Shown here piece after piece: positions 5,581-34,137 of a stretch of 64,000 nt of DNA (position 1 is the first letter of the stretch; each line of letters starts with the position of its first letter). The translations under genes and the position numbers were made by a program. The notes beneath the pieces were generated by a model, which saw only the letters and a list, made by a program, of their open reading frames with translations, searched no databases and was not told where the DNA came from. Origin of the DNA: Eledone cirrhosa (taxonomy: Eukaryota); assembly GCA_964016885.1 (NCBI GenBank), contig OZ024756.1, forward strand, positions 2,232,001-2,296,000, read 5' to 3'.

Positions 5581-6427
5581 TGAAGGATAAGTATTTACCC
5601 TTAATTTTATTCTGAGTTAAACTCTATTGGTTTTTCCTGGATTACACAAAATCTGTGGATAAAATTTCTGTCTTGGCTTTTTTTGAATTGAGATTGAATT
5701 ATTTTCCTATATCTTACGTTAAATATTGTCCATATTGACGTAATAGTCACTTATATGTATGAATTACTGTTGGCTTCTTGCTCACATTAATTTCTCTATT
5801 TTCCTTTATATTTATACTCGGAATTCTTCCTAGAGTGCTTAAAATTATTTGTGACTAATCCCGTTTTTTTTTTTTAAAACCGCAATAATATTGCTTTATG
5901 CTGAACTTCATATTTTTTGTTGAGTTTTTTTCGGAATGTTTTGACTGCTGTTTCTTGTAAAAAGTCATTCGTCTCATTCTGACGTCACTAGCCCTGTTCT
6001 CCATGTGTGTTTATTATCTTAATTCCACACGAGGTGTAATTAGCCTGCTTTTAAATTCCCTTTCTGGCATATTTTAGCTGTGGTCTTAGTTATCGCGTTG
6101 AGCTCTACTGATGAACGATTTAACCGTGACTAACCCCACTGACAAGTTTCGTGAAATAGTCTTTTTAGGACTATATAGAGCATTTGTAGATTTTTCCAAA
6201 TTGAAGGATAAGTATTTACCCTTAATTTTATTTTGAGTTAAGATTCTATTGGTTTTATTCCCTGGATTCCACAAAATCTGTGAATAAAATTTCTGTCTTG
6301 ACTTTTTTTAATTAAGATTGAATTATTTTCCCATATCTTACGTTAAATATTTTCCATCTTGACGTAATAGTCACTTATATGTCTGAATTACTGTTGGCTT
6401 CTTGCTCACATTAATTTCTCTATTTTC

Positions 6428-6430
<3 letters not shown>
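5578..6430 (+). mobile_element. Retrozyme/pseudo-LTR-like element: 620-bp unit present about 1.37 times, with a hammerhead, between (TA)n tracts
   Basis: 5578-~5802 is repeated directly at 6198-~6427. Complete hammerhead at 6102-6181. (TA)n on both sides and no meaningful ORF. Confidence 0.8.
6102..6181 (+). ncRNA. Type I hammerhead ribozyme, canonical core
   Basis: Stem I GCTCTA(6102-07)/TAGAGC(6176-81); CTGATGA 6108-14; stem II ACGA/TCGT with a 30-nt loop; GAAA 6153-56; stem III TAGTC/GACTA; AUA triplet, predicted cleavage after 6175. Confidence 0.88.
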
Positions 6431-6496
<66 letters not shown>

Positions 6497-6555
6497 AATA
6501 ACTTTGATAGGTTTCGGCTAGTATTGGTCCAGGCCATATCTAACTTAAAAGCACC

Positions 6556-6601
<46 letters not shown>

Positions 6602-6754
6602 GGGGGGATGTGTGTGTATGTGTGTGTGTGTAAATGTATATAATAGCATATCTGCTTCTATAAAATGTTGGTATGTATACTGCGCAAAAAGATAAATCTC
6701 TCTCTCTCTATATATATATATATTTAATAGAGAGAGGGGGAGGGAGAGTGTGTG

Positions 6755-6812
<58 letters not shown>

Positions 6813-6919
6813 AAGCGTACCCATGTAGATATATATTCATTGATTTGCTTTGAATCTGAACGAAAATATGTACGGCCATGTTTATCTATGTATACACGCT
6901 ATTCTACACCATTAGAAGA

Positions 6920-7311
6920 CACACACACACACACTCTCTTATACACACACACATACAGACATACATACACACACTCTCTCATACACACACACAGACAAAC
7001 ATACATACACACTCTCTCTTATACACACACACAGACAGACATACATACACACACTCTCTCATACACACACACAGACAGACATACATACACACACACTCTC
7101 TCATACACACACACAGACAAACATACATACACACACACTCTCTTATACACACACACAGACATACATACATACACACACTCTCTCATACACACACACAGAC
7201 AGACATACATACTCACTCTCTCTTATACACGCACACAGACAGACACACACATTTGGAGAAGAAGAAGAAGAAGAAGAAGAAGAAGAAGAAGAAGAAGAAG
7301 AAGAAGAAGAA
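6920..7311. repeat. About 42-44-bp CA-rich minisatellite followed by (GAA)n
   Basis: Repeating cacagacagacatacatacacacactctctcatacacaca units; pure GAA run at 7258-7311. Confidence 0.9.
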
Positions 7312-7949
7312 GGCATGTACTGATTAAGCTATGAAACGCCGTCAAAGGGAAGGAACCGAACCAAATAAGCGGACGGTGGAGATAACTAGATTATTTAAAA
7401 CATAGACCAACGGCTTAGCTAACCAGGCTGAAGTAATTCGTACTCACTTAACTTTATTCTTCATTAGGACATGTCGGCTGCTGTTAGAGACGGCCGCCAT
7501 TTGCACAGAATCAAATAATGTCGGCGATATGTTTTATCTTATTTTTAGCTTATGTGACTATCTCTGACCATCAGTTCATTTTAATGTACATTTAGACGTG
7601 TGTGTGTGTGGGGGGGGAGGTGTATGAGTGTGTGTGGGGTGGGGGTGGGGCGGGGGGGGGGGGGACATATATATATATATATATTCATACATATAATATA
7701 CATATATATATATATATATACATACATATAATATACATACATATATATATATATATATTTATATATATACATACTTACATATAGTATATATATACACACA
7801 TACATATTGGTGCCCCAGCATGGCCTCAGCCGGATGGCTGAAACAGGTAAAAGAGAATATATATATATATATATATATACATACATATAATATATATACA
7901 TAAATATATGTATGTATACATACAATATATATACATACATATAGTATAT

Positions 7950-7982
<33 letters not shown>

Positions 7983-8119
7983 CATAAATATATGTATGTA
8001 TACATATATATATATATATACATAAATATATGTATGTATACATATATATATATACATATAATATATATATATATACATATAATGTACATATAATATATAT
8101 ATATATATACATACATATA

Positions 8120-8161
<42 letters not shown>

Positions 8162-8371
8162 TATATGTGTGTGTGTATGTATGTGTGTGTGTGTGTGTGT
8201 ATGTGTGTGTTTATGTGTATATGTGGATGTATGTATGTGTGTGCTCGCGTATGTATGTATGAGTGTATGTGAACGTATGTATGTATGTATGTATGTGTGT
8301 GTATGTGTGTGTATGTGTGTTTCTTCCTCTCTATTAACTTCATATATTTCTATAAGGTACATTCTATCTTG

Positions 8372-8522
8372 GTATGTGTATGTAACTCTCTATGTGTGTA
8401 TGTAACTCTCTATGTGTGTATGTAACTCTCTATGTGTGTATGTAACTCTCTATGTGTGTATGTAACTCTCTATGTGTGTATGTAACTCTCTATGTGTGTA
8501 TGTAACTCTCTATGTGTGTATG
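8372..8522. repeat. 20-bp tandem repeat (tgtaactctctatgtgtgta), about 7 copies
   Basis: Exact period 20. Confidence 0.95.
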
Positions 8523-8866
8523 GAATTATTCTCTGCTACGGACGTTCGTGTTTTTTTCTGCTAAACCTTTGTATACTTGGTACATTCTCAATGTGAATGT
8601 ATTACTGTGTATGTGAGTGAATGTATTACTGTATGGGTATATGTACGTTTGTGCTTTTGTGTGTATGGCAAGGATTTATATTTAGATATACACAACAAAT
8701 AAATATATATATGTTTAGAAATGTGTATGTACTTGAATGAATTAGCACATGCGTATTATTGTGCTTTTTTACGTGCGTGCTGGAATTTGTATATTTAAAT
8801 GTTTGAAAGATATATATATATATACATACACATACATACACATACATACATACATACATACATACA

Positions 8867-8901
<35 letters not shown>

Positions 8902-8904
8902 TAA

Positions 8905-9000
8905 TACATATTTGCTCTAGGGTTCTTACATATTTGATATATATTTATCCTTATTGAGCCCTCTTTGGATTTTAGTCTTCACATTTATTATTATTACTAT
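8905..9000 (+). mobile_element. Truncated copy of the tail of the 33290-33514 hairpin element
   Basis: Its reverse complement matches 33290-33380 (tagtaataataataaat..gaagactaaaatccaaagaggg...tagagcaaat). It ends at (TA)n at the same position. Confidence 0.8.
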
Positions 9001-9045
9001 ATATATATATATATATATATATGACGCGAGTCCACAAGTTAAAAC

Positions 9046-9134
9046 TTATCCGAGGAGCTTCCGATTTCAGAGTCAGGTTCGATCATTAATAGATCGTTCC
9101 TCGAGCTGATCGACAGTGAAACATATGTAATTAA
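9046..9134 (+). ncRNA. Hammerhead variant with enlarged stem II (family shared with 34043-34137)
   Basis: CCGAGGA 9050-56; stem II GCT/AGT extended by cga..tcag/ctga.tcg; GAAA 9118-21; palindromic CATATG; GUA. Stem I is weak. Confidence 0.6.
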
Positions 9135-9157
9135 ATATGTATATGATGCAACACTGA

Positions 9158-9188
<31 letters not shown>

Positions 9189-9689
9189 TATTGAGGTGGT
9201 AACACTCTCCCTTTATCTCAACATACATCAAGTACTATTCTGATTTGTGGTCTACGCGGTTTCGCACTGTAGGCACTCAAGTTATATACATGAATCTTTG
9301 CATATACTATTGTATGGGAACACGTGTGTGCATGCATGCAATTATATTTTCAATATATATCTTTTGATGTATGTATGTATGTGTACATATACGTTTGTTT
9401 GTATGTCTATACGTATGTATATGCATGAATTATGGGTTAAACTTGTGTAATGTTTTACAGATTTTTACAGTTCTATTACTGTCACGTAGCCCTGAACTCC
9501 CGATTAACAGCGTCTTTTCTGGTTTCCTAAAACCTAGCTTCTCGTTGTTGGTGCCGTGGCTGTCAATTATTTAACCAAATGCCGCAACAACCATAGAATT
9601 AAATCTAAAGTTTTAATCCGTCTGGTGAATCTGTGAATCTTTGCCATAAATTCGACACAACACAAAGCAACAAGCTACAACACTAATTA

Positions 9690-9782
9690 ATTGTTTCTAC
9701 TTTAGGCACAAGGCCAGCAATTACCCAGTGCATTACTGGTACTTTATTTTATCGACCCCGTAAGGATGAAAGGCAAAGTCAA
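9690..9782 (-). mobile_element. tRNA-derived SINE (Nin-domain type), 3' fragment
   Basis: Matches the 3' half of the full copy at 61301-61488. Confidence 0.85.
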
Positions 9783-9879
9783 TGAATTGAGGATATCGCC
9801 CTCACCAATTCCCACAATTTTGAAGTTCCTGAAAAAGTTATATGCGCTTCCCTTCCTAACTAAATAGTCTTTTTCTTCT

Positions 9880-10210
9880 CCTTCAGGGGGTCTTTGGGGC
9901 AACAGTCCTTAAACGTTCCTTCCACAGGTTCCTGTCAGAAGCAACCGTCTTCAACTGATCCGGCTGGATCCCCAAGCGAAAACAGCTAAACTCATGGATG
10001 TTATCCAACCATCTTGCTCGGGGTCTACCCCTGGGTCCCCTACCGGCTGGATTTCCCGTAAAATCTGTCCAGCGATTCTTTACTGAGACATTCTAACCAC
10101 ATGCCCATTGTATCAGAGTTATGTTCTCTCAATTCGGAGAAGTAGTAGCTCTACCTGGAGTGACACCCTGATCTCCGAGCTATGTACTCTATCGAGCAAC
10201 GTAACTCTAT
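9880..10210 (-). mobile_element. RTE-clade LINE 3' fragment, degenerate
   Basis: Minus translation gives RVTLLDRVHSSEIR...GHVVRMS...PRGRPRARWLDNI...VASDRNLWK, the typical RTE C-terminus. A related scrap lies at 45180-45250 (+). Confidence 0.8.
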
Positions 10211-10455
10211 AGTAAAAATAGGCTATTATATTTGTATGGTTATGTTTGAAATGAGGGACATTGGATTGTTATTTCTAGCCTGTTATGTGACCACATAGAC
10301 TATGGTTATCAAACTACTTTTACTCACGTCTCTATTTAGAACAAGTAAACATATTTTGGCGTAGTTTGTACCCTAGCCTCGAAAATTTATTTAAACGAGA
10401 TATTTATATATATTAGCATAGCATTATAAATATTGTAGCAATATATATATTGTAG

Positions 10456-10549
<94 letters not shown>

Positions 10550-10569
10550 ATATATATATAGTATATATA

Positions 10570-10745
10570 TAGAGGTAGAACACTGGAAGGTAATATCCGT
10601 AGTGGTAGAGCACTCAGTCCATGGGAAGAGTTAGATAAAAATGGTTACACAATAGTTAGTTCACCTTACCGAGAACAATTGTTTCACCTTATCTGGTGAA
10701 ACAATTGTTCTCGGTATGGTGAACTAACTGTTGTGTAACCACTTC
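10570..10745. mobile_element. Tail + hairpin insertion in (TA)n
   Basis: Arms 10642-10688/10695-10741 (47 bp) with a 6-nt loop. GAAA-CAATTG-TT lies immediately after the apex. Confidence 0.8.
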
Positions 10746-10764
10746 TATAATATATATATATATA

Positions 10765-11143
10765 TAGTTAAAAGAATAGAGGTGTAACACACAAGTTATT
10801 ATATATTGGTAAACGGAATAGAAAATGCTGACAAATTGTTCACAGTTGAAAAATGGTTTAATTAGGAATAAAAGAGTATTAGTGATTGTATGGGTTAGTA
10901 TTCAGTTGTGGTTTTAAGTTTTTAAGTTTTTACAGGTTGCGCATTTCTAAATGCTTTTCAAAAATAATTTTGAGATAGAGTGTCCGTGCTGTTTGCTAGC
11001 ATTTAGAAATGCGCAACCGGTAAAAACTTAAAAACTTAAAACCACAACTGAATACTAACCCATACAATCACTAATACTCTTTTATTCCTAATTAAACCAT
11101 TTTTCAACTGTGAACAATTTGTCAGCATTTTCTATTCCGTTTA

Positions 11144-11152
<9 letters not shown>
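10765..11152. mobile_element. Tail + long hairpin insertion in (TA)n
   Basis: Arms 10801-10955/10998-11152 (about 155 bp, near perfect) with a 42-nt spacer. Confidence 0.85.
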
Positions 11153-11197
<45 letters not shown>

Positions 11198-11230
11198 GAA
11201 ATAAATTTGTATTTCAGTCTTTACTCAAAT

Positions 11231-11650
11231 TTTTTTTAATATTCTTTTCTTACTGTATCAAGCAGGAAATGAAGTGAAATTATTATTTGGTTAAACATAC
11301 AGAAAAAGAAAGCAATATTGGAAAGGACTATAAATGCCATAAATGAGAGGAAAGGGAGGGGAAGTGCAAGGGGTACTAGATAAAGGAAGACTGAGAAGGG
11401 GAAAGGGAGAGGGTGACAGACTGTACTTCTAGGTCGGCTGGGTCCCGCGGACCAAATGGCAAAGGCATTTCCGTGGACAATAGCCAACGACACACGCTAC
11501 AACAGCCAACCCACTTAGTTGGGCTCCTTCCTCAGACGAGCTGCTATCTATCCTCGGAGGAGGTCAGCTGCCTGGGGTCCGAAGACGTTAGAGGTCTCGA
11601 CGGTGACCAGTGCAATGAGGATGTGGCCAGACAAACCTCTGTATTTGCCT
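11231..11650 (-). mobile_element. CRE-like (restriction-like endonuclease) non-LTR retrotransposon 3' end, degenerate
   Basis: Minus translation KYRGLS...VETSNVFGPQAADLLRG*IAARL...WLL*RVSLAIVHGNAFAI matches the REL C-terminal ET.G..G...QR.S.AI.RGNA pattern. It is followed by a 3' UTR and an A-run. Confidence 0.75.
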
Positions 11651-12144
11651 GTCTCCTTGTCCCCTACACTCAGCAACGTTATCAATATGAAACATACAGT
11701 TGCTATTTGTTAGCAATGTTTTCACTCTTAGTTTAGAGGTTCCACACTTTGACAGTTTTATTACGAATTTCAATTAATATTTTCACATTTTGAAATAGAA
11801 TCTTGCTTTTTTGCACCGTAAACTAATTATATCACGTGGGGTATCAGTGCATCGATGCACACAATTAGAGAACCACTGATCTAGTTAGTTAAAGACACAC
11901 AAGTATATGCTATAGATGTTATGGGTGTAAGTCTCACAGTCATCAATCTGACATATCTAACCTCTATATTACATTAAAACTCTGCCCGTGTCAAACTGAT
12001 TCTTCAGCTGCTGTCATCCAACGCTATTACCTCTGATTCAGAAGTTTCCTCTATCAGTATCAGGCCTTGCGGCAGTTTTACTAAAGTACAACTTTAACAT
12101 GTACACTATTAATTTCTCATGTTTATCATTGAATGAAGCAAATA

Positions 12145-13063
12145 TGTGTTTGTGCGCGTGTGCGTATGTGTGTTTACGAGTGTGTGTATGTGTGTATTTA
12201 CAAGTGTATGTATGTGTGTGTGTTTACGAGTGAGTGTATGTGTGCGCGTTTACGAGTGTGTATATGTGTGTGTTTCCGATTGTGTGTGTGTGTGTGTGTG
12301 TGTTTACGAGTGTGTGTATGTGTTTACGAGTGTGTGTATGTGTGCGCATGTTTATATATGTATCTATGTATGTATATATGTTTGTTTATGTATGAATATT
12401 TGTGTATATGTGTATGTATGTTTGTGTATGTACGTATGTATATATGTTTGTTTATGTATGGATATTTGTGTATATGTGTATGTATGTTTGTGTATGTACG
12501 TATGTATATATGTTTGTTTATGTATGGATATTTGTGTATATATGTATGTATGTATATATATTAGTGTTTGTATGCATATTTGTGTATATATGTATGTATG
12601 TATATATGTTTGTGTATGCATGTATATTTATGTATGTATGTATGTATATTTGTGTATGTATGTATGTTTGTGTATGTATGCATATATGTTTGTTTATGTA
12701 TGTGTATATATGTATGTATATATATTTGTGTTTGTATGTATATTTGTGTATGTATGTGTGTGTATGTATGTGTGTATATGCATGTGTGTGTATGTATGTT
12801 TGTCTATGTGTGTATTATTTAGTCATGGAGGAGTAAATACACATATATATTTCAATATGTGCCTGTATAAATATAAATATCTACATATTTATTCTTGACT
12901 GTATATATGTGTATAGTATGTGTGTGTGTATGTATGTATGCCTGTATGTGTGCGCGTGTGTGTGTATGTATGCATGTATGTGTGTGTATGTATGAATGTT
13001 TGTATTTAAGTGTGTAAGTACGTTTGTGTATGAGTATACATGTATGCATGCATGTATATATAT

Positions 13064-13124
<61 letters not shown>

Positions 13125-13210
13125 TATATATATATATATACACACACACGCACCTATATATATATACACACACATATTTATATACATATACATATATACA
13201 TAACACATAG

Positions 13211-13242
<32 letters not shown>

Positions 13243-13326
13243 CATATACATATATATGTATAAATATGTGTATATATATATATATATGTATAAATATGTA
13301 TAAGTATGTGTGTGTGTATATATATG

Positions 13327-13391
<65 letters not shown>

Positions 13392-13410
13392 ATGTATGTG
13401 TGGTTGTGTG
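12145..13410. repeat. Compound TG/TA/TATG low-complexity tract
   Basis: Direct reading. Confidence 0.95.
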
Positions 13411-13991
13411 TGTTAGTACGTATGAACGCAGTTTTAACGCTAATTGCAATTACTGTAAACATACAGGTTTAATAAACATCTCAAACGTCAAGTGGGGTGG
13501 AGGGGGGGTGGGGGGGTGACGTAGACTAGGGGTTTAGTGGATGATTGAGCGGAGCCCCTTAAAACATCTAATTAACTATCATAAACACCTTGTCGTCAGG
13601 GGTTTAACGAACCCAACCTCCCTAATAAATAAACATAATTTCCCTACTTAGCTTCATATATCTTAATATTCCTTCTAACTTTTCTTATTTTTATGTTCTT
13701 CATTAAATATTCCCAGAGTTGCCAGCCAACCTCCCTGAAACTATACAAATTAGGTTTTTATTAAAACATAATTAATTACCGGAAGTGATATAAGAAAGGA
13801 AGTTGAGACGGTAATCGAACCCGGAATCTCTTAATTTTATAGCTATTTAGTAAACCTGGTGTGTGTGGTGTGGTTAATAACTTGTAAGAAATAATTAATA
13901 GTTTGTCAAAGAAATATATCACTTAGATGGAAGACATGTAGCGTAAGGTGGGTGGTTGCGGTCTTGACGTTTATGTGGTGCCTCTGGCTAA

Positions 13992-14043
<52 letters not shown>

Positions 14044-14222
14044 AAGTTTCTGTTGAATAAGTAGATTTTAAAATGGCGATGGGAACTTTTGTCAATGTAT
14101 CTACACACGAACGTGTGTATATGTATGTTTGTGTTTATATATATATATATATACATATATATATACGTGTGTGTGTGTGAGAGAGAGTGTGTATATATAT
14201 ATATATGTGTGTGTGTGAGAGA

Positions 14223-14264
<42 letters not shown>

Positions 14265-14333
14265 TATGAAGAGAGAAGAAACATTTAGATATAATTAGTA
14301 ATAAAATGTATCATACCTAAACTGTTCCTAAAT

Positions 14334-14421
14334 TCCTCGACTACGTAGTTTCGTGGCATAAACAAAAACAATATATCAAAGATATAGAGTCCTTGCGAGG
14401 TCTGCCGACTTATCAAGAGGA
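14334..14421 (-). ncRNA. Degenerate hammerhead with enlarged stem II
   Basis: Minus strand: TCCTC-TTGATAA-GTcGGCA...TGCCAC-GAAA-CTACGTAG-TC-GAGGA. All three stems are present, but the core differs from CTGATGA at two positions. Confidence 0.65.
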
Positions 14422-14533
14422 TACCTCATTTTACTAGTCTCAAGAACGCGTCTACACGACGTGAGAAAGAATCCCAAAAGGCGGAGGGGGAGATAGTCAC
14501 GCGATATAACGGTCGAGAAACAGAGCTAAGCCT

Positions 14534-14572
<39 letters not shown>

Positions 14573-14618
14573 TATGGAATACTGTTGGCTTTTTGCTACA
14601 ATATTTTCTATACCTTTC

Positions 14619-14664
<46 letters not shown>

Positions 14665-14669
<5 letters not shown>

Positions 14670-15109
14670 AAAGTTTTATTTAAGATTGTTGGGTTACAAC
14701 GAGTAAATATTTCATAACTGATATAAAAGCACTCAACAGTTTCTGGAGTAGGTTTACGATATTAAACAAATGGAAACTATATTTATAAAACTATATTTAT
14801 TTCGTTATATATATTTCTGGGATATCATATTAAAAATATGTTATGCCTTCCTCAGACAAAATACAATATATAAGCTGTTTTATAAATAATTAGTGACATA
14901 CCTTGTGATAATGCAACTTCCTTTTAAAAATCAACTTTTTAAAAGGAAGTTGCATTATCACAAGGTATGTCACTAATTATTTATAAAACAGCTTATGTAT
15001 TGTATTTTGTCTGAGGAAGGCATAACATATTTTTAATATGATATCCCAGAAATATATATAACGAAATAAATATAGTATTATAAATATAGTTTCCATTTGT
15101 TTAATATCG

Positions 15110-15111
<2 letters not shown>
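14665..15111. mobile_element. Tail + 176-bp hairpin insertion with a hammerhead in each arm
   Basis: Arms 14755-14930/14936-15111 with a 5-nt loop; (TA)n flanks. Confidence 0.88.
15003..15068 (+). ncRNA. Type I hammerhead ribozyme (mirror copy on - strand at about 14798-14863)
   Basis: Stem I TATTTTGT/ACGAAATA; CTGAGGA 15011-17; stem II with an inner CATATT/AATATG hairpin; GAAA 15049-52; palindromic TATATA; AUA. Confidence 0.72.
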
Positions 15112-15140
<29 letters not shown>

Positions 15141-15199
15141 ATATGTTTGTGTTTGAGAGAGAGTGTGTATATATGTATATATATATATATATATATATG

Positions 15200-15366
15200 T
15201 AGAAGTTGTATTTAATTTGTTGGAATTCCGACAATCATAAATGTTTATAACTGATTTAGAGCACTCAACAGTTTACTGGAGTAAATATTCCATGATATTA
15301 AACAAATGGAAACTATATTTATAAAATGGTTTTATAGATATAGTTTCCATTTATTTAATATCATGG
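15200..15366. mobile_element. Shorter hairpin sibling of 14665-15111
   Basis: Shares gcactcaacagttt..ctggagta and gatattaaacaaatggaaactatatttataaaa. Arms about 15290-15326/15330-15366. Confidence 0.8.
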
Positions 15367-15368
15367 TG

Positions 15369-15405
<37 letters not shown>

Positions 15406-15888
15406 TTGAGAGAGAGTGTGTATATATGTACACATATATATATATGCGTGTGTGTGCGTGTGTTACAACAACCGTGAATATACTTAATTCGAACATAAAT
15501 ACACCCAGATCAAACTGTGAACCAAACACAATCTATACACCTAGATTCGATCTCATTGACCCTAATCAAACATCTCATCGAGATGTTAAACCATACACAG
15601 CCTTCTCCTCTATGTCCAAACATCCTGGTAAAACGAACGCCGACTTTCACCAATTACTAGTTTGGGGATGACGGACGTCATCAGGCCGCGACCCTCCTAC
15701 TGCATAGCTCCTTCCTGGTATATAACTGCAGAGATAACGACCCCATTACGTCATTGACATATACTTCACACGTGACTTGTACAATCATTTGGAACAACTA
15801 CCGAGCCAAACTGAAAAATCGAACTCCATCTATCACTTTTGACATACATATATGTGCGTGTATGCAAGTATGGATGTAAGCATGTATG

Positions 15889-15917
<29 letters not shown>

Positions 15918-15924
<7 letters not shown>

Positions 15925-16075
15925 TAAAGTGGTCCTTCATCACTGATCTTCCAACCATCATCGGTATTTCTTCGCTTTCTTTAAAGCGAAGAAATACCGA
16001 TGATGGTTGGAAGGTCACTGATGAAGGGCCACTTTATTCATATGTAACCCATTTGCAACCACGCAGCACGTTTAT

Positions 16076-16108: not shown

Positions 16109-16291
16109 CCCTCCTCATTTAAGAAGAAACACCTAGTTAAATGCAAAAACACCGACAAAACCATAACAGTTAGGATAGAAACTAAGGAAAGAAACCTCGG
16201 CAATCTTAGAATTAAGGAAGCACTATTTATAGACAAAACACAACCACCAATCAATAATAGACTAGAACTCAACACCCAATTTATAACTTGA
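16109..16291 (+). pseudogene. Penelope-like element GIY-YIG endonuclease C-terminal fragment (5'-truncated at (TA)n)
   Basis: The frame reads PSSFKKKHLVKCKNTDKTITVRIETKERNLGNLRIKEALFIDKTQPPINNRLELNTQFIT*, containing the PLE H...L.IKEAL.I....P.IN terminus. It has no start codon, so it is absent from the ORF track. Confidence 0.8.
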
Positions 16292-16855
16292 TAGAGCTTC
16301 TAGCCCCATATTTACCCCCCCCCCCCATACACACACACGCACACACACACGCACGCACACACGCACACACACACGCTTACACCTCCACTTATTCTCTCTC
16401 ACACACACACATACACACACAAAGACCAGTTCTAACACGAGATAACATCTATCCCCCACATTTACGTATAGACATATATTCTCACTCTCACACACACACA
16501 CTCACATACTTACACCTTCATGCATTCTCCCACACACTTAAACAGGCATGTACGAAAAAAAAAAAAAAACCCTTTTAAAGGGAGACTACTCTTTATCCAC
16601 CTAACCGTAACTCTTTGACATTAGAGATAGAACAGATACTCTATACCATTTCCTGTCAGCATGACTTGGCAAGCTATTTAGAACACTGGTTTAACCGCTT
16701 TACTTCCCTCCGAAGAAGAAATATTATCTCGAAAATTAAGGACATTTAAATAAATCTAAGCTAAAAGACTAATTGTCAACAATATCTTTTGCATTTGCAT
16801 TCTTTATTCTATGTCCATACCTGCATTGTTTTGGCTTTATTATACATATACAAAC

Positions 16856-21657: not shown

Positions 21658-21715
<58 letters not shown>

Positions 21716-21767
21716 CAGGAAAGAAGATTGACATGGTTTGCAATACAAAAAAGGTTTTTAATCTCAT

Positions 21768-21875
21768 TGCTGACAATTGTTTCTCTGAACTGGTAGGTCT
21801 AGAGATCGCTATTCGCTTGTTTTCACGTTACTAGATCGCCAATACAAAATTATAACCAGTCAGTTCTTCGGAACA
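21768..21875 (-). ncRNA. Hammerhead variant with about 80-nt stem II domain
   Basis: Minus strand: TGTT-CCGAAGA-a-CTGA-CTGGT...ACCAG-t-TCAG-a-GAAA-CAATTG-TC-AGCA; lies in (TA)n-flanked island 21712-22003. Confidence 0.68.
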
Positions 21876-22394
21876 TGCGAGAATGAAGAGAATATACAGG
21901 CATGAAAGGAATATACAGGCTACTATATGAAGTAGTAATGGCATTCAGTTAGAACAATAACAACAATTACAACAATGCTAGTAATAAATTATTTGTTACC
22001 CCGTATATATATATATATATATATATATATAGCGAATGGTCTTCAAAATGTTTTTAATTAAACATATTGCCAAATATACTATACATACATTCATATATGT
22101 CTCTCTCTCTCTATATATGTGTGTGTATGAATGCAGACAATGGATGCTGTACGCTATCTTGCTACATTAAATGTGGCAGAAACTTGAGTACGAGTATATA
22201 TTTATGGTACCCATTTACGTGTGTTGTATCGAGGCAAATAATTTTGTGTCTAGTCTGTGATTTACACCTAATCTTACCTATTGAGAACTCTGAGATGCAA
22301 CCGGTACTAGCAGGGAAACTTATGCTAGTCCGGTTAACCTCTGCACTGGGTAATTGTTGGCCTTGTGCCTATATAAGTAACTTATTATTATGAT

Positions 22395-24510: not shown

Positions 24511-24516
24511 CAAAAT

Positions 24517-24700
24517 GGTTTCTACTTTACGCAGAAAGCCAACAATTTGGGGGGGGGGGGGCAACGTTACTGGTACTTTATTTTATCGACCTCGTAATCA
24601 TGAAAGGCAAAGTTAACCTCGGAAGGGTTTAAACTTAGAACGTAAAGGGCCGTTACTCTGTGCTACAAAGCATGTTGTCCGATGCTCTATCGATTACTGT
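24517..24700 (-). mobile_element. Nin-type tRNA SINE
   Basis: Reverse-complement match to 61301-61488. Confidence 0.82.
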
Positions 24701-25162
24701 CAATAGTAAAATGGTTAAGAAACTGTCTCATCATCAACCATAAGAATACATCATGTTTGGTAGTGTATATATTTATATGTTTATCTGTCTGTAACTTGCA
24801 TTCACACACGGACTCACACAGACACATATACATATATACACAAACACACACACACAGACACACACAGACACACATACACAGACACACAGACACAAATACA
24901 CTCAGACACACAAACACACACAGACACATACACATATAGACAAACACATGCACATACACGCACACACACACACATACACAAACACACGCACACACAGACA
25001 CTCAGACACACAAACACACACACACACGCAGACACATACACAAACACACACACGTAGACACAAAACAAACACACACAGACACACAATCACAAACACACAC
25101 ATACACAGACACATATAGACAAACACATACACATACACGCAGACACACACACACATACACAA

Positions 25163-25196
<34 letters not shown>

Positions 25197-25762
25197 TCAG
25201 ACACACAAACACACATAAACACACACACACGCAGACACACATACACATACAAACATACACAAACGCACACACGCAAACACATACACACAAACACAAACAC
25301 ACAAACACAAACAGACACATACACACAAACACAGACACACAAACACATACACAGACAAACACACACAGAGAGTACATTTCCTGACTCATGTTTTCTAAAC
25401 CCAAGGACTTCTCTTTTATCCCTATATGTGTCCCAGTAAATAACATTTTCATCAAAGTTCCTTCTTCAGTTAACCCAGTAAGTCATTTCTACAAATATAC
25501 GGAGCTAATATGTAAATATATCCCCCAAAATAAGTTATTAAAATATCACTTTTATCTTTACTTAAGCCTAGGGTCAGTAAGCATCATAAACTATAGGGTT
25601 TATTTTATGCAAACCATTAATTTATCAAAATTTCCTGGTTTTTATTATTGTTATTTCATCCAGCTTTCCTGGCATTTATAACACACCAATCTTGAAGTCC
25701 ACAAAAAATAATAACAAAAAAACAAAACAAACAAGATTATTGATGTCATTATTGACAATGCG

Positions 25763-26646
25763 TGAGTTCAAATCCCGTCGAGGTTAACTTTGACTTTCAT
25801 CCTAACGGGGCCGATAAAATAAAGTACCAGTAATGCACTAGGGTCGATTTAATCGACTTACCCCTCCCCCCAAATTGCTGGTCTTGTGCCTATATAAGAA
25901 ACCATTATTGACAACATGGGTACACTAATCACTGCTCACTAAATATAATTGTTTCTACTTTTGGCACAAAGCCAGCAATTACCCCAGTACATTACTGGTA
26001 CTTTATTTTATCGACCTCGTAAGGATGAAAAGCAAAGTTAACGTCGGTGGGATTTGAACTCAGAGCGTGAAGGGCCATAACTCTATGCTACAAAGCATGG
26101 CGTCTGACGCTCTACCGATTCTGCCAAACCACAGCCCTAATAATGCTTTCTGATTTAGGCACAAGGGCCCCAATTTGAAGTGAGGACGAAATCGATTAAA
26201 TCGACCCACTGCTTGACTGCTACTTTACTTTATCGACCCCGGAAGGATAAAATACAAAGTTGACTTCGGTGGAATGTGAACTCAGAATGTAAAGAGTCAG
26301 AACAAATACCGCAAATTATTTTATCCGACGCTCTACCGAGTTTACCAGCTTACTACCCCAATAGTGATTAATAATGCTTTCTGATTTAGGCACAAGGCCA
26401 GTAATTACCCAGTGCATTACTGGTACTTTATTTTATCGACCCCGTAAGGATGAAAGGCAAAGTCAACCTCGGCGGGATTTGAACTCAGATCGTAAAGGGA
26501 TGTAACTATGCTGGAAAGGATGGCGTCCGACTCTCTACCGATACTATAATGCTTTCTGATTTAGGCACAAGGCGAACAATTTGGGGGGAGGGGTAAGTCG
26601 ATTATATCGACTCCAGCGCATTACTGGTACTTCATTTTATCGACCC
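25763..26646. mobile_element. Cluster of five Nin-type SINE copies (one +, four - head-to-tail)
   Basis: Repeated ttaggcacaagg...ctggtactttattttatcgacc...aggatgaaaggcaaagt..acctcggcgggatttgaactcag blocks. Confidence 0.9.
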
Positions 26647-27169
26647 TGCAAGTGTACAGCTAAAATATTGATAATGTGTCAACAGCAACATCGTCCAGTA
26701 TATGTTTATCACCAACCACTTGACCAACAACAGTAACAACATCAACAACATCACGCAAACCTGGTTTCTATATATAGTAATTTAAGAAACTTACGCACAA
26801 ATATGTCCGACTGTGTTAGTGTGACTTTGAATTCTCAACTGGACATTATAACATTTTTGTCAATGGCGTTTACCAACCGGAAGTTGATTGACTCACGTGA
26901 CCGTTCAATGACTGTCCTACTGTTTATTCAAGAACTTATAAGTACAGTAACAATGGACCCCTGGTGGCTAACAATAACACCAATAACAATAAAGAACGGT
27001 AACTCATGGAAAGTGTTTTTTCACGCCTTTTTTTCTTCTATTTTCTCTCTCTCTTTCTCTCTCTTCCTCCTTCATTAAATCTTCTTTCTTTCTTTCATTC
27101 TTGTTTTTCCTTTTCATTATTTTCTCTTGTATTATATTTCTTTTATTCTTCGTTTCAACATTACACTCG

Positions 27170-28810
27170 AGACAACTCTCTCTCATCTCTCACTCTCACA
27201 TCTCTCATCACTCTCTCACTCTCTCACTCCTCTCATCTCTCTCTCACTCCTCTCTCTCACACTTCTCATCTCTCTCTCATCTCTCTCTCTCACTTTTCTC
27301 ATCTCTCACTCTCATCTCTCACTCATCTCTCTCTCTCACCTCTCATCTCTCTCTCACTCTCATCTCTCTCTCACTACTCTCTCTCACTCTCTCACTCTTA
27401 TCTCTCTCTCATCTATCTCTCTCACTTTTCTCATCTCTCACCTCTCTCATCTCTCTCTCACTCTTTTCATCTCTCTCTCTCTCTCACTCTCATCTCTCTC
27501 TCACTCCTCTCACCTCTCATCTCTCATCACTCTCTCTCACTCCTCTCATCTCTCTCTCACTCCTCTCACCTCTAATCATTCTCTCTCACTCCACTCATCT
27601 CTCTCTCTCTTCCACTCCTCTCATCTTTCTCACTCCTCTCATCTCACTCAACCCCTCTCTCTCAGCCCTCTTATCTCTCCCTCACTCCCCCCCCCCACAA
27701 CGTTATCTTCACCCGACTATTTCAATGCAATTCAATTTATTGACAAAGGATGTTTTTACCTCAATAACTACACACACACACCACACACACACACACCACA
27801 CACACACACACACACACCACACACACACACACACACACCACACACACACACCACACACCACACACACCACACACCACACGCACCACACACACCACACACA
27901 CACACACACCACACACACCACACACACCCACACACCACACACACTCACACACACACAATACATACACACCAAACACCACCCACACACTCCACACCCACAC
28001 ATACCACACACACACCACACACACCACACACACACCACACACACACACCACACACACACACCACATACATACCACACACACACCACACATTTCACACACA
28101 CACCACACACACTCACACACACCATACACACACCACCCACCACCCCACACACACATACCCCCCCCAAGAACACACACTCATCTGCCCACCCTCCCTTCTA
28201 TCACTATTTTCACTCCTACCTTCCCTCTTACTCCCCCTCTCTGTCCGCCTTCACTTTCCTCCCCACTCAATGTTTTTGTTATTTTCTCTCTCTCCCTCTC
28301 CCTCTATCTCTGTCACTCTCACTCTCCCTCTCTCTGTGTCACTCTCACTACCTCTTCATCTCTCTTCTCTCCTCCCCTTCCTTACCTTATGTTCCTTATC
28401 TTCACCTCCTCATCTTAATCTTCCCAATTCTCCTCCAACATATCTGCCACTCCACACACCACACTCCACCCTCCATCATCCACAAACCACACTACACTGC
28501 CCCCCCCACACACACACCACACTCCGCATACCACACTCAAAACTCCACACCCGACACTCCACAGCCCACGCTTCACACTCCACAGCCCACGCTTCACACT
28601 CCACACACCACATTCCATCTCCACACTCCAGCACACACACACACCACACTAAACTTCACACACCGCACTTCACACACAACACTCCACACTCCACCTCCAC
28701 ACTCCACCTCCACAACACACTTCACACTCCACTCTCCACACTGCTACCTACACTCCACATTCCACTATCCACACTCCACACAACACTCCACCAATCACAC
28801 TCCACTCGCT
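27170..28810. repeat. CT-rich then CA-rich low-complexity tract
   Basis: Direct reading. Confidence 0.93.
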
Positions 28811-28854
28811 TTCTCTATAACTTTCCTCTACTCCTCTCCTTCCATCTGCTTCTT

Positions 28855-29078
28855 CTAGACCTTAACCGTCGCCATCTTGCCATCTAAATATCCAGACCTT
28901 AACCGTCGCCATCTTGCCATCTAAATATCTAAACCTTAACCCTCGCCATCTTGCCATCTAAATATCTAAACCTTAACCGTCGCCATCTTGCCATCTAAAT
29001 ATCCAAACCTTAACCGTCGCCATCTTGCCATCTAATTATCCAGACCTTAACCGTCGCCATCTTGCCATCTAAATATCT
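28855..29078. repeat. 37-bp tandem repeat, 6 copies (accttaaccgtcgccatcttgccatctaaatatccag)
   Basis: cttaacc recurs at 28861, 28898 and onward with period 37. Confidence 0.95.
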
Positions 29079-29277
29079 CACAATAATTCTGATAATTCAG
29101 TTTTAACCAACAATTCTCTCCATCTTTCGTATTTCTATCTTTAACACAATATGTCGTCTGTTTCTCTGATGTCAGCCATTGTTCCTCAAATTATACAAAA
29201 AACAATTAATTTGTCAGATCTACGAGAAACGGATCTTAACTGAAATATTGGAAACTGTGTAACTACTCTGGCTCACC

Positions 29278-30430
29278 CTGTCTCTCTCTCTATCTCTCTC
29301 TGTCTCTCTCTAACTCTGTCTCTCCCTGTCTCTTGCTCTATCTCTCTCTGTATCTCTCTCTAACCCTGTCTCTCCCTGTCTCTCTCTCTATCTCTCCTTC
29401 TCTCTCTCTCTAACTCTCTCTCTGTCTCTCCCTGTCTCTCTCTCTCTCTCTCTCTCTCCTTCTCTCTCTCTAACTCCGTCTCTCCCTGTCTCTCTCTCTC
29501 CTTCTCTCTCTCTAACTCTGTCTCTCTCTGTCTCTCTCTCTGTCTCTCCTTCTATCTCTCTAACTCTGTCTCTCCCTGTCTTTTCTCTCTATCTCTCCTT
29601 CTCTCTCTCTAACTCTGTCTCTCCCTGTCTCTCTCTCTCTATCTCTCTCTGTCTCTCTCTCTGTGTCTCTCTCTAACTCTGTCTCTCCCTGTCTCTCTCT
29701 CTATCTCTCTGTCTCTCTCTCTAACTCTGTCTCTCCCTGTCTCTCTCTCTATCTCTCCTTCTCTCTCTCTAACTCTGTCCCTCCCTCTATCTCTCCTTCT
29801 TTCTCTCTAACTCTGTCTCTCCCTGTCTCTCTCTCTATCTCTCCTTCTCTCTCTCTAACTCTGTCTCTCCCTGTCTCTCTCTCTATCTCTCTCTGTCTCT
29901 CTCTAATTCTGTCTCTCTCTTCTCCCTGTCTCTCTCTCTATCTCTCCTACTCTCTCTCTAACTCTGTCTCTCCCTGTCTCTCTCTAACTCTGTCTCCCTG
30001 TCTCTCTCTCTATCTCTCCTCTCTCTAACTCTGTCTCTCCCTGTCTCTCTCTATCTCTCCCTGTCTCTCTCTCTATCTCTCTGCCTGCTTCTATCTCTGT
30101 CTATGCCGGTTTCTCTTTGTTTGTGTCAATCTCTCTCTCTCTCTCTCACTTATGTCTGTCTCTCTGTCAGTCACTTTGTCATTCCGTCTATCTACCTCTC
30201 TATCTCTCTATATATTCCCCTCTCTACCTCTCTTTATCCCCCTCTCTATCTTCCTCTCTCTTTCTCTACCTCTCTATCTCCCTCTCTATCTTCCCCTCTA
30301 TCTGTCTCTCCATCTACTTCTCTATCTCCCTCTCTATCTCTCTATCTATTCCCCTCTCTACCTCTCTCTATCTTCCTCTCTCTCTCTACCTCTAGCTGTC
30401 TCTCTAACTCCCTCTCTATCTGTCCCTCTG
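29278..30430. repeat. CT-rich about 45-50-bp minisatellite (ctctaactctgtctctccctgtc...) grading into low complexity
   Basis: Recurring taactctgtctctccctg anchor. Confidence 0.9.
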
Positions 30431-30769
30431 TAGACCCACACGTACACACCACACACACAACACACACACACACGTTTTCCCTTCCACCACCCATCCTTTT
30501 CCCTCTCCCTCTTCCAACTCCCCTCTCACCCTTCAAACTCCCCCACCCCCTCTAACGAACTAACAGACTTAACTGATAATTCCCGTCCATTTCTCGTGGG
30601 ACCAACCAACATTATTTTCATAATTTGCCCGCGGGTACAACTAACCTCTCCTACCAAACTGTAACGACTTTGAAAGCTGACGAGGTGGGGTGGGGTGGGG
30701 TCGGCTGCTGTATTTGGTACACCGCTTGTAGAGCGGTGATGGATCAGATTTTAGCAGTGACTGATTATG

Positions 30770-31063
30770 ACGACAGCAGCAACAACAACAACAACAACAG
30801 TAACAGTAACACTAACAACAACAACAACATCAACAACATCACCACCACCACCATCAACAACAACACCACCAACAACAACAGCAACAACAACATCAGCCAT
30901 TACAACAACAGTAACACTAACAACACCAACAGCAAGAACAGCAACAGCAAAAACAACAGCAAAAACAACAACAAACGGCAGCAAAAACAACAACAAAAAG
31001 AACAAAAACTACTACTACTACTACTATTACTAATAATAAAAATAATAATAATAATGCTGCTAT

Positions 31064-31095
<32 letters not shown>

Positions 31096-32310
31096 ATAAT
31101 AATAATAATAATGCTACTACTACTACTACTACTATTATTATTATGACAAGATAATGACAACAACAATGACAACAATAACCACTACAGCCAGTAACAAGAG
31201 CAACAACAACAACCACCACTACAACAACAACACCAACAACAACAGCAGCCACTACAACAACCACTACAACAACAACAACAACATCCACTACAACAACACC
31301 ACCACCACCAACAACAGCCACTACAACAACACCACCACCAACAACAACGACAACAACAACAGCAACAACAGCCACTACAACAACACCACCACCAACAACA
31401 ACGACAACAACAACAACAACAACAGCCACTACAACAACACCACCAACAACAGCCACTACAACAACAACACCACCAGCTACAACTACAACAAAAACACCAA
31501 CAACAACAAAAGCCTCTACAACAGAAACAGCCACTACAACAACAACAACAGCCACAACAACAACAAAAACAACAACAACACCAACAACAGCCACTAAAAC
31601 AACAACAACAGCCACAACAACAACGAAAACAACAACAACAACAACAACAGCCACTACAACAACAACAGTAACTACGACAACAACAACAGCCACTACAACA
31701 ACAACAACAACAACAACCACTACAACAACAACAACCACTACAACAACAACAACAACCACTACAACAACAACAACAACCACTACAACAACAACAACCACTA
31801 CAACAACAACAATATGGTATCTGCAAGAACAAGGACAACAACAACAAGAGCAACAGCAGCAACAGTTACAACAACATCAGCAACAACAATAACAGCAGTA
31901 ACCACCACCACCACCACCACCACCACCACCACCACCAACACCACCACCAACAACGACAACAGCACCACCACCACCACCAACGATAATAGCACCACCACCA
32001 CCATCACCACCACCGACACCACCACCACTACCAACAACGACAACAGCACCACCACCACCACCAACGATAATAGCACCACCACCACCATCACCACCACCGA
32101 CACCACCACCACTACCAACAACGACAACAGCACCACCACCACCACCAACGATAATAGCACCACCACCACCACCACCGACACCACCACCACCACTACCAAC
32201 AACGACAACAGCACCACCACCACCAACGATAATAGCACCACCACCACCACCACCGACACCACCACCACTACCAACAACGACAACAGCACCAACAACAACA
32301 ACAACCACAG
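30770..32310. repeat. (AAC)/(ACT)/(AAT)/(ACC) trinucleotide mosaic
   Basis: Direct reading. Confidence 0.95.
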
Positions 32311-32478
32311 CAGAGTTTGCACCGAATGTTATTTTTATTAGATTAATCTGTTTTACAGTCGACCATAGTGAAGTAGTTTGGCAGATGACAACAGATCGAG
32401 ATCTACATGTACCGTTATATCTAGCTATATATATATATATATATACATGTATATATAGATGTATATATGCATGTATAT

Positions 32479-32530
<52 letters not shown>

Positions 32531-32655
32531 GTATACGCACACACACGTCCATAAAGACATACAGCCATACAACATATCTACACATATTGTTCTCTACATA
32601 TATACAGCTGTTCATGTGTGTAGACATACATAGATGCTTACACACTCACACACAC

Positions 32656-32690
<35 letters not shown>

Positions 32691-32789
32691 TATTGAAGTT
32701 TCCGTTGAACATTGAAAAAGTCATAAGAGGGAAGAGTGCTCTATGTAAGTTACAGAGCTAAATTTAATGTATAATAAACAATACAATAT

Positions 32790-32867
32790 AATTACCTCAT
32801 TACCAGAGGTTTCCCGAATAAGATGAATACAAGAAACGTCCGCATTCGTTCGTCAGACAAGGCAATT
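32790..32867 (-). ncRNA. Type I hammerhead ribozyme, canonical core, in (TA)n-flanked island 32689-32880
   Basis: Minus strand: AATTGCCTTGT-CTGACGA-a-CGAATG...TATTCG-g-GAAA-CC-tct-GG-TA-ATGAGGTAATT. 11-bp stem I (with GU pairs); GUA triplet. Confidence 0.82.
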
Positions 32868-32876
32868 TAAAACATA

Positions 32877-32917
<41 letters not shown>

Positions 32918-33289
32918 CATACATATGTACTTAAATACGTACATACATACAGCTGGGACCGTACACATACATATATAGAGACATACATACATATGTAGAG
33001 ACAGACATACGTACACACACATACACACACATATATATATTTGTGTGTATACATGTATGTATATTTCTGTATGTGGACACACAGACATACAAAATCACAC
33101 ACACACATACACACACACACAGGCACATGTATATCCATGTGTGTTTGTGTTTAAGTATTTCTGTTTTAGGTACTGGCTGATTAAAAAGCCGGGAGTTCTC
33201 TCCCTTGTCACTTCTAAGAGTAATTTTCTGGTGTTTTCCCTCATTGGTGAACAAATTTCAGTTATTTGATCATATATATATATATATAT

Positions 33290-33506
33290 ATAGTAATAAT
33301 AATAAATTTGAAGACTAAAATCCAAAGAGGGCGCGATAAGGATAAATATATATCAAATATATAAGAACCGTAGAGCAAATATTTATTAAAATAACAGATT
33401 AAAGTTTAAGCAAAGAATCGCTGCTTTCACCCTTAACGGGATCTTCTGAAGATCCCGTTAGGGTGAAAGCAGCGATTCTTTGCGTAAACTTTAATCTGTT
33501 ATTTTA

Positions 33507-33514
<8 letters not shown>
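33290..33514. mobile_element. Tail + hairpin insertion whose apex is the hammerhead core
   Basis: Arms 33379-33446/33448-33514. The + strand reads CTGAAGA(33446-52)-t-CCC-gtta-GGG-t-GAAA-GCAG...TTGC. Confidence 0.85.
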
Positions 33515-33578
<64 letters not shown>

Positions 33579-33948
33579 TAGTAGTTAATAACTTTACGTT
33601 ACTATTGGTTCACTAACTCGAGCACTCGTTGATATGGATCGTACATTGACCTGATTAATCGCGAAACACGCGTCACACCTGAATAGAATTAATGATGATA
33701 CTTTGACACTTCGTTCATACTCATTACTATTATATCATATATATATATATATATAAGGGATAACAAAATATCGTTATAGGTAATCCAGTCATTCTGATGA
33801 CCTACAATTAGGAATGAGTAGCAAAGCACTCAATAAGGGTAGGTCCTTAGAGTAATAATATTACGTTTAGTTAGCTTGACAAATTGAAAATTAAGCAGGC
33901 AAAACCCAGCCATACAGTACCAAAACAACGAAAACACTAATCAGGTTA

Positions 33949-34018
<70 letters not shown>

Positions 34019-34042
34019 AATTGGAGACGAACTCATATACTA

Positions 34043-34137
34043 AGCATATCTCACGACCTTTCGATTACAAAGTCAGGTTCGATCTATTAATAGATCTTGC
34101 CTCGAGCTGATCGATAGAGAAACATCTGTAATATGTT
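34043..34137 (+). ncRNA. Hammerhead with enlarged stem II (sibling of 9046-9134), one core mutation
   Basis: AGCATAT-CTCACGA-cCTtTCGAT...ATCGAtAGa-GAAA-CATCTG-TA-ATATGTT; 7-bp stem I. Confidence 0.7.

What the first reader, a model, noticed from the sequence alone, without database searches (positions are those of the whole stretch)
6102..34137. Recurrent hammerhead variant class: enlarged stem II, mismatched 10.1-11.1 pair, C at core position 4
Seen: the core-to-GAAA distance is 38 nt (6102), 61 (9046), about 58 (14334), 31 (15003), about 81 (21768), about 37 (32790) and 62 (34043), often with a palindromic stem III (CATATG, CTACGTAG, TATATA, CAATTG). The pair closing stem II is unpaired in unrelated families: U.U (33453, 36361), A.A (15018, 21864), A.G (32849), C.A (34057). 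CCGANGA occurs at 9050, 21865 and possibly 16710. Established: PLE hammerheads are usually minimal, with palindromic stem III that permits dimer cleavage. Inference: these large-stem-II forms would be missed by standard models, and the insert may be an RT-recognition or regulatory domain. Some deviations may be post-insertion decay.
Basis: partly seen in the sequence, partly recalled or inferred. Interest (0 to 1): 0.72.

Follow-up and report, generated by a model that had tools for sequence, protein, structure and literature searches.

The report
Oversized hammerheads in Penelope-type repeats
Several unrelated small jumping repeats in this animal genome carry hammerhead RNA motifs with a long folded extra arm; in the two families tested the arm is inherited and keeps its pairing, and one family also keeps an unusual core letter, so these are likely slow self-cutting RNAs of Penelope-type elements rather than one new class.

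Summary
The motifs are real: 7 descriptor hits against 0.04 in shuffles. Five of the seven quoted lengths are exact and two are off by one base. They are not one class: seven long inserts form six unrelated families, and long stem II, mismatch and C4 occur independently. Two families were tested with public reads. Family A (9050/34050): the 61-62-nt rod is inherited, in a second species too; the C.A mismatch is decay (11.1 is U in 73-85%), but G-C is not restored; C4 is not the majority. Family B (21871): the 81-nt insert is inherited and 11 of 12 listed variants fall in unpaired sites (p about 0.0006); C4 holds 97% of contig depth; A.A is a minority beside U-A. U.U, C.A, U4C, U3-A8 and a 54-nt stem II are already in print. 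Rfam misses short and long forms alike. Cleavage and RT binding are untested. The scan noted oversized stem II hammerheads in this genome before, on other DNA. Verdict: new variants of Penelope-type hammerheads; the family-wide C4 in an 81-nt form is the freshest point.

The parts
6102..6181 (+). Type I hammerhead; canonical core 6108-6114; stem II region 38 nt closed by A-U with an unstructured 30-nt loop; long non-palindromic stem III; predicted cut after 6175
   Evidence: insert z +0.2; family consensus not tested
9046..9133 (+). Family A copy 1; core with C4 at 9050-9056; 61-nt rod-like stem II closed by G.U; palindromic stem III; stem I weak in this copy
   Evidence: z -2.2; 82% identical to the 34050 copy
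14334..14421 (-). Type I hammerhead with U3-A8 covariant core (14416-14410); 57-nt stem II closed by G-C; palindromic 8-nt stem III
   Evidence: (z -3.6); consensus not tested
14798..14863 (-). Mirror copy of the 15011 motif in a 176-nt inverted repeat
15003..15068 (+). Type I hammerhead; 31-nt stem II with A.A at the base and a C.C mismatch after two G-C pairs; palindromic stem III
   Evidence: (z -2.6); consensus not tested
16109..16288 (+). C-terminal end of a Penelope-type ORF (GIY-YIG tail)
   Evidence: 36 hits, best E 1e-15; 4 of 8 hits scanned carry RVT_1 plus GIY-YIG, 2 more GIY-YIG without RVT_1
16705..16742 (+). Minimal hammerhead with C4, extra A after A9, short G-C-closed stem II, no stem III loop; about 420 nt behind the ORF end
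   Evidence: read by eye; consensus not tested
21768..21875 (-). Family B hammerhead; C4 core 21871-21865; 81-nt structured stem II (21864-21784); palindromic stem III; predicted cut after 21772; lies in a 291-nt island between (TA)n runs
32790..32867 (-). Type I hammerhead; 36-nt stem II region with A.G at the base; 11-bp stem I
   Evidence: (z -1.5); consensus not tested
33446..33490 (+). Short-stem-II hammerhead remnant with U.U base, at the turn of a fold-back that replaced its stem I 5' strand
   Evidence: by eye
34043..34137 (+). Family A copy 2, decayed at G5, 11.1, stem III and one insert pair; 62-nt stem II
   Evidence: (z -3.0)
35668..35717 (+). Short-stem-II (13 nt) hammerhead with A.A base; not in the finding
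36349..36398 (+). Short-stem-II (12 nt) hammerhead with U.U base, in a fold-back

Best explanation
These are type I hammerhead motifs of at least six unrelated repeat families, likely the terminal repeats or short non-coding derivatives of Penelope-like retroelements, and each is predicted to cut its element's RNA slowly, likely as a dimer where stem III is palindromic, with the long stem II likely acting as a folded scaffold rather than as a sequence tag. Shown: cores, stems and cut-site triplets; inheritance of the long stem II in two families; variation confined mostly to loops; C4 as the majority in family B. Inferred: cleavage itself; dimer action; Penelope origin of the long forms; and that the rod props up a weak base of stem II (no G-C at 10.1-11.1) and offers a bulge or internal loop 2-5 pairs from the core in place of the usual loop II contact with stem I. 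Each family tunes its ribozyme by its own mix of tolerated changes (U.U, Y.U, W.A, C4, U3-A8), and single copies then decay further.
For: Enrichment over shuffles. Reads restore the catalytic features where the 34050 copy is damaged: G5 in 99% of X1 depth and 294 of 298 X13 reads, and the stem III palindrome in 98%. In family B reads restore a C-G pair in stem I (217 of 221 X13 reads), and a U-A/A-U swap appears on both strands of stem I at similar rates (X13 52% and 48%; X1 15% and 7%; not phased). Insert constraint: in family B 11 of 12 listed variants lie at sites unpaired in the natural copy's own fold and the twelfth turns U.G into C-G. In family A the window's A.C mismatch is G-C in 98-99%, and loose-end consensus lines from a second species keep the helices while changing loops, with one G-C to A-U double change in the apical hairpin (13 contigs, agreement 0.69, table 7). 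Penelope context: every motif sits in a 136-853-nt island between (TA)n runs, the preference listed for Hydra and Naiad elements; five motifs lie in inverted pairs or fold-backs; one C4 motif follows an RT/GIY-YIG ORF end. Dimer cleavage and low activity are reported for PLE hammerheads (PMC4209133).
Against: No cleavage data. No long-stem-II motif in this window is joined to a Penelope ORF. Only 2 of 6 long-stem families could be tested. The read tables show only the best 40 rows (61 and 12 rows hidden), are not phased, and clip divergent copies: 342 clipped X13 reads show a U4 form of family B, perhaps from one RAD locus. The inserts at 6108 (z +0.2), 21871 (z -1.2) and 32856 (z -1.5) are not clearly more stable than shuffles. 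Unconstrained folds of several copies do not give the full hammerhead shape. Most insert pairs are invariant, which fits sequence conservation as well as structure. (TA)n runs are so dense here that flanking by them is weak evidence.
Confidence: 0.55

Rival explanations
1. The long stem II is a binding handle for the Penelope protein (RT/endonuclease), which switches on a ribozyme weakened by C4 or a mismatched closing pair, or which marks the RNA for copying.
For: The Anolis Poseidon hammerhead cleaves only when element protein is added (PMC11167929, passages). Family B's proximal loop and its whole 3' strand (21811-21784) show no listed variant. Summed contig depth is about 4-fold higher over the 3' half of both ribozymes, with the step inside the insert, which could mark a preferred end of copying.
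Against: The inserts share no sequence across families and apical loops vary within families. In the same paper cleavage was not needed for insertion. The depth step may only reflect divergent subfamilies.
Confidence: 0.22
2. The inserts are near-neutral fold-back expansions of loop II, kept paired only so that they do not misfold the core; the odd letters are tolerated slack.
For: Six unrelated inserts. AT-rich perfect hairpins at the tips of 14416, 15011 and family A. The 6108 loop is unstructured. The window has many fold-backs. Stem II is often short or weak in natural hammerheads (PMC3088659).
Against: Family A keeps the same helix and loop layout in a second species at under 90% identity (79 of 96 laid contigs). 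Family B variants avoid paired sites.
Confidence: 0.17
3. The conserved part works as DNA (internal promoter of the terminal repeat), and the ribozymes with C4 or mismatches are dead relics.
For: PLE terminal repeats hold promoters (PMC6765202, passages). Invariant pairs do not prove RNA structure. U4C lowers activity in vitro (PMC3088659).
Against: Reads restore exactly the catalytic and pairing positions, the cut-site base varies only between permitted letters (C/A at 21772), and variants avoid paired sites.
Confidence: 0.06

Closest known systems
Hammerheads of Hydra-clade and other EN+ Penelope-like elements (Craig et al. 2021, PMC8557442; passages and supplement part 2 with File S2 read)
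   Same: Type I layout and (TA)n insertion preference. U.U at 10.1-11.1 in 14 of 26 Hydra rows and U.C in 1. C.A in PLE-X1_cBra. A 54-nt core-to-GAAA stretch in PLE-X1_sMoe, marked as deviating. Eight Naiads, including one from Octopus, are listed as 'HHR_half_core' with the halves 35-50 nt apart.
   Different: Hydra stem II regions in File S2 are short (about 12-26 nt, read off the table). None of the 34 rows has C4. No 57-81-nt structured stem II is listed there.
Minimal PLE hammerheads (Cervera and de la Pena 2014, PMC4209133; parts 1-2 of 4 read)
   Same: [quoted passage not shown] The 16710 motif fits this type.
   Different: That paper calls G10.1-C11.1 highly conserved, whereas families A and B lack it. 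Their inserts are 61-81 nt with several helices.
Natural core variants (Perreault et al. 2011, PMC3088659; passages)
   Same: U10.1.U11.1, U3-A8 and a viroid U4C are described as natural; U4C is slower in vitro but sufficient in vivo.
   Different: There U4C is a rare viroid variant; here C4 is the majority state of a repeated animal family.
Animal non-LTR retrozymes (PMC7229834, passages; bioRxiv 10.64898/2026.07.22.740005, part 1 of 5)
   Same: Short non-coding type I hammerhead repeats linked to PLEs; U.U at the base of helix II in axolotl HHR_Amex2.
   Different: Retrozymes are tandem 300-400-nt units with short helix II; the copies here are single, truncated or inverted, and circular RNA was not tested.

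Membership tests
Type I hammerhead ribozyme | CUGANGA and GAAA core with NUH site in type I order | tested here: met
   Met in 6108, 15011 and 32856; with a known variant core in 14416 (U3-A8) and in 9050 and 21871 (C4); restored by reads at 34050
Type I hammerhead ribozyme | Three helices around the core, beyond chance | tested here: met
   7 hits against 0.04 in shuffles; stem I is weak in the 9050 copy
Type I hammerhead ribozyme | Canonical G10.1-C11.1 pair (usual, not obligatory) | tested here: not met
   Family A: 11.1 is U, 10.1 is C or U, G in some copies. Family B: U-A or A.A. G-C only at 14416 and 16710.
Type I hammerhead ribozyme | Self-cleavage at the predicted site | not testable with these tools
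   Needs in vitro assay or RNA ends
Rfam hammerhead families | Score at or above the gathering threshold | tested here: not met
   0 hits in the window; no hammerhead hit at E up to 10 on the 21871 and 6108 islands; HH9 only 14 bits against 52 on a short form
Penelope-like element terminal repeat or derivative | Motif in a pLTR next to an RT plus GIY-YIG ORF | tested here: inconclusive
   Met for the short C4 motif at 16710; no ORF is joined to any long-stem-II motif in this window (Pfam scan of 13 fragments blank)
Penelope-like element terminal repeat or derivative | Insertion into (TA)n; truncated and inverted arrangements | tested here: met
   weak as a test because (TA)n is dense here
Non-LTR retrozyme | Tandem 300-400-nt units, each with a hammerhead | tested here: not met
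   No tandem unit in this window holds these motifs; arrangement elsewhere in the genome is unknown
Non-LTR retrozyme | Expression as circular RNA | not testable with these tools
   No RNA run was laid
   Long stems with paired closings (6108, 14416); short stems with mismatch (33446, 35676, 36354); C4 in a short G-C form (16710); all three traits together only in the 21871 copy, whose family is mostly U-A

The most novel reading that the evidence does not exclude
Family B is a protein-gated ribozyme: a fixed C4 brake keeps it slow until the Penelope reverse transcriptase binds its 81-nt stem II domain, coupling RNA cleavage to loading of the element's own protein. Six families in this genome would then have evolved such handles independently.
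Probability: 0.15. Interest if true: 0.72.

Novelty: new variant of a known kind. Interest (0 to 1): 0.43.

Why it matters
The role of hammerheads in Penelope-like elements is open: one tested element needs its protein to cleave and does not need cleavage to insert (PMC11167929). Families with inherited 60-80-nt structured domains, one with a family-wide C4 core, give ready deletion and reversion tests of that role. They also show that short-spacer searches (7-17 nt in PMC8557442) undercount these ribozymes, so some elements said to have only half a core may have whole ones. The individual deviations are mostly precedented, which caps the interest.

Tried and rejected
No whole genome is held, so per-family alignments and R-scape-type tests could not be made. 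Pattern scans for families A and B found nothing in metagenome contigs or, for family A, in viral contigs. The one viral hit for family B (L001) is a 20-nt chance match with no flanking similarity. No RNA holder was listed for 32690-37400; this says nothing on expression. Six short motifs from the window were not found in the PMC8557442 supplement; line breaks in its FASTA could hide a match. Word-index protein searches with two ORF fragments found nothing; the full phmmer search did find relatives for one. The Rfam E-value scan of 4700-44000 listed mostly microRNA-like hits on microsatellites and hairpins, and 86 of 236 rows were not shown. The repeat listing was swamped by microsatellites. 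Look-ups of earlier findings by sequence or relatives were blank, as was one by words. Lunse et al. 2017 (PMC5785218) is not held; it treats small PLE hammerhead variants and may bear on novelty. Paper searches for 'extended stem II' with retrotransposon, for 'A10.1' and for position 4 with cytidine gave nothing relevant; 'U4C' gave only PMC3088659. Rejected: common origin of the inserts (only 1 of 21 pairs is similar). Rejected: 14416 as a decayed core (it is the U3-A8 covariant). An A.A closing in the newt satellite 2 hammerhead is recalled only and was not confirmed by any search.
Full report
Setting. The window is AT-rich animal DNA dense in microsatellites, with LINE ORFs at 747-3250 and 50929-53929 and a SINE-like repeat in many copies. 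'Octopus-like' and 'Tx1-type' are my recalled labels; no call names the organism. No whole genome is held.

Observation. All quoted features are present. Two lengths are off by one: 57 at 14416- and 36 at 32856-. A type I descriptor gives 7 hits in 33,073 unmasked bases against 0.04 in 300 shuffles, 5 of them with long stem II (thresholds were chosen after seeing the motifs, and 9050, 34050, 33446 and 16710 do not pass it). Rfam finds no hammerhead at gathering score, none at E up to 10 on two long-stem islands, and only 14-16 bits on a short-stem one. So standard models miss these motifs, but not only because of the long stem.

Not one class. Of 21 pairwise comparisons among the seven long inserts only 9050/34050 are similar, giving six families. 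Long stems close with A-U (6108), G-C (14416) and G.U (9050) as well as with mismatches. Mismatches also occur in short stems (33446, 35676, 36354). C4 also occurs in a short, G-C-closed minimal motif (16710). Insert stability varies from z -3.6 (14416) to +0.2 (6108).

Family A (four runs laid on 34010-34535 at 80% likeness; 40 rows shown, 61 hidden). The family is repeated in run X1 (summed depth 6,600-36,000 over the motif, against 10-20 for single contigs; not a copy number). It is also in X13, another sample with the same species label, and in X6, a second organism; X5 has none of it. The window copy at 34050 is decayed. Reads restore G5 (99% of X1 depth, 294 of 298 X13 reads, 86% X6), the stem III palindrome (98%, 98%, 83%) and a G-C pair in the insert (98%, 99%, 71%). 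Position 11.1 is U (85%, 454 of 620 reads, 82%), so C.A is not the family state. Position 10.1 is not restored to G in X1 (under 10%, from the tally of changes); U is 16% in X1 and 138 of 298 in X13; G occurs in the 9050 copy and in an X6 loose-end line. An A minority cannot be excluded. No majority C4 row appears, so the C4 of 9050 is not the majority among laid reads; clipping of divergent copies could hide a subfamily. The listed polymorphic insert sites 34061, 34099 and 34115 are unpaired in the 9050 copy's own fold. X6 loose-end lines keep the helices, vary the 4x4 loop, and show one G-C to A-U double change in the apical hairpin (13 contigs, agreement 0.69).

Family B (four runs laid on 21713-22003; 40 rows shown, 12 hidden). 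Summed X1 depth over the motif is 44,000-240,000. U at position 4 is seen in 2.6% of X1 depth (9 contigs) and 47 of 220 X13 reads; the one X9 contig covering the site keeps C. A further 342 clipped X13 reads show a U4 form, possibly from one RAD locus, so U4 subfamilies exist. Position 10.1 is U in 70% of X1 depth but in only 78 of 215 X13 reads, opposite an unchanged A: U-A and A.A coexist, and G-C is absent. Reads restore a C-G in stem I and a G-C in the insert, and the cut-site base varies between C and A. Eleven of 12 listed variants in the 81-nt region fall at sites unpaired in the natural copy's fold (37 of 81 sites; p 0.0006; 9 of 10 without the closing base and the near-fixed site, p 0.002), and the twelfth improves a pair. 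The variants are not independent events, so these p values are generous. X6 covers only a low-complexity flank.

Penelope link. Each motif lies in a 136-853-nt island between (TA)n runs, and several form fold-backs. The peptide at 16109-16288 matches C-terminal ends of proteins (36 hits); 4 of 8 scanned carry RVT_1 plus GIY-YIG. The C4 minimal motif follows about 420 nt later. No long-stem motif here is joined to an ORF, so their Penelope origin is inferred.

Mechanism. Shown: the anatomy, inheritance and pairing constraint above. From the literature: PLE hammerheads with palindromic stem III cleave weakly and as dimers (PMC4209133); one needs its element's protein (PMC11167929); U4C slows cleavage but can suffice in vivo (PMC3088659). 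Inferred: each family is a slow ribozyme that frees or trims the element RNA, and the long rod is a scaffold that steadies a weak stem II base and may supply the stem I contact. I put this at 0.55, a protein handle at 0.22, neutral expansion at 0.17 and a DNA-level role at 0.06.

Comparison. U.U is the closing in 14 of 26 Hydra rows of File S2 of PMC8557442, C.A occurs in one plant element, and a 54-nt stem II region in another. U3-A8 and enlarged helix II are in PMC4209133. None of the 34 File S2 rows has C4. My searches found no report of 57-81-nt structured stem II or of a family-wide C4 in animal PLE hammerheads, but Lunse et al. 2017 could not be read and the supplementary figures of the other papers were not examined. 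Earlier scan notes describe oversized stem II, U.U and C.C families in the same genome and U4C in phages; I used them as leads only.

Verdict. Real motifs, partly right reading. They are new variants of a known kind, with a testable extra domain and one family-wide core change. Interest 0.43.

Noticed in passing
window 34200-34400 (-) and inverted pair 15925-16070: Very high-depth family (X1 summed depth up to 348,000; also in run X5) whose hammerhead parts lie in the order cut site, GAAA, CUGANGA, like type-SGC ribozymes (PMC10085705, passages). Stem I 34271-34266 with 34302-34307 pairs 6 of 6; the two stem II strands seem to pair with an upstream extra strand. The window copy is damaged near GAAA.
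   Followed up: partly
window 34100 and 21810: Summed contig depth rises about 4-fold in X1 (14-fold in X6 for family A) just 3' of the insert's tip in both families, so many relatives share only the 3' half of the ribozyme: truncation at stem II or divergent subfamilies.
   Followed up: no
window 41584-42126 (-), 42146-42809: ORF end with a Cys-rich linker, Neptune- or Hydra-like by eye, next to an inverted pair of short hammerhead-like motifs at 42338- and 42617+. Pfam and homolog searches were blank.
   Followed up: partly
   Followed up: partly
window 5109-, 13599-, 15684-, 21434-/21480+, 33794+, 35075-: Further CUGANGA cores in short islands between microsatellites; they did not pass the descriptor and may be decayed, halved or rearranged hammerheads.
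   Followed up: no
window 747-3250 (-) and 50929-53929 (-): Two related LINE copies (82% identical over 889 nt): one with an open 658-codon first frame, one frameshifted.
   Followed up: no
window 8901-8997 and 33293-33389: Both family A copies lie near a piece of the same other repeat (94% identical, inverted), which belongs to the island of the 33446 motif.
   Followed up: no
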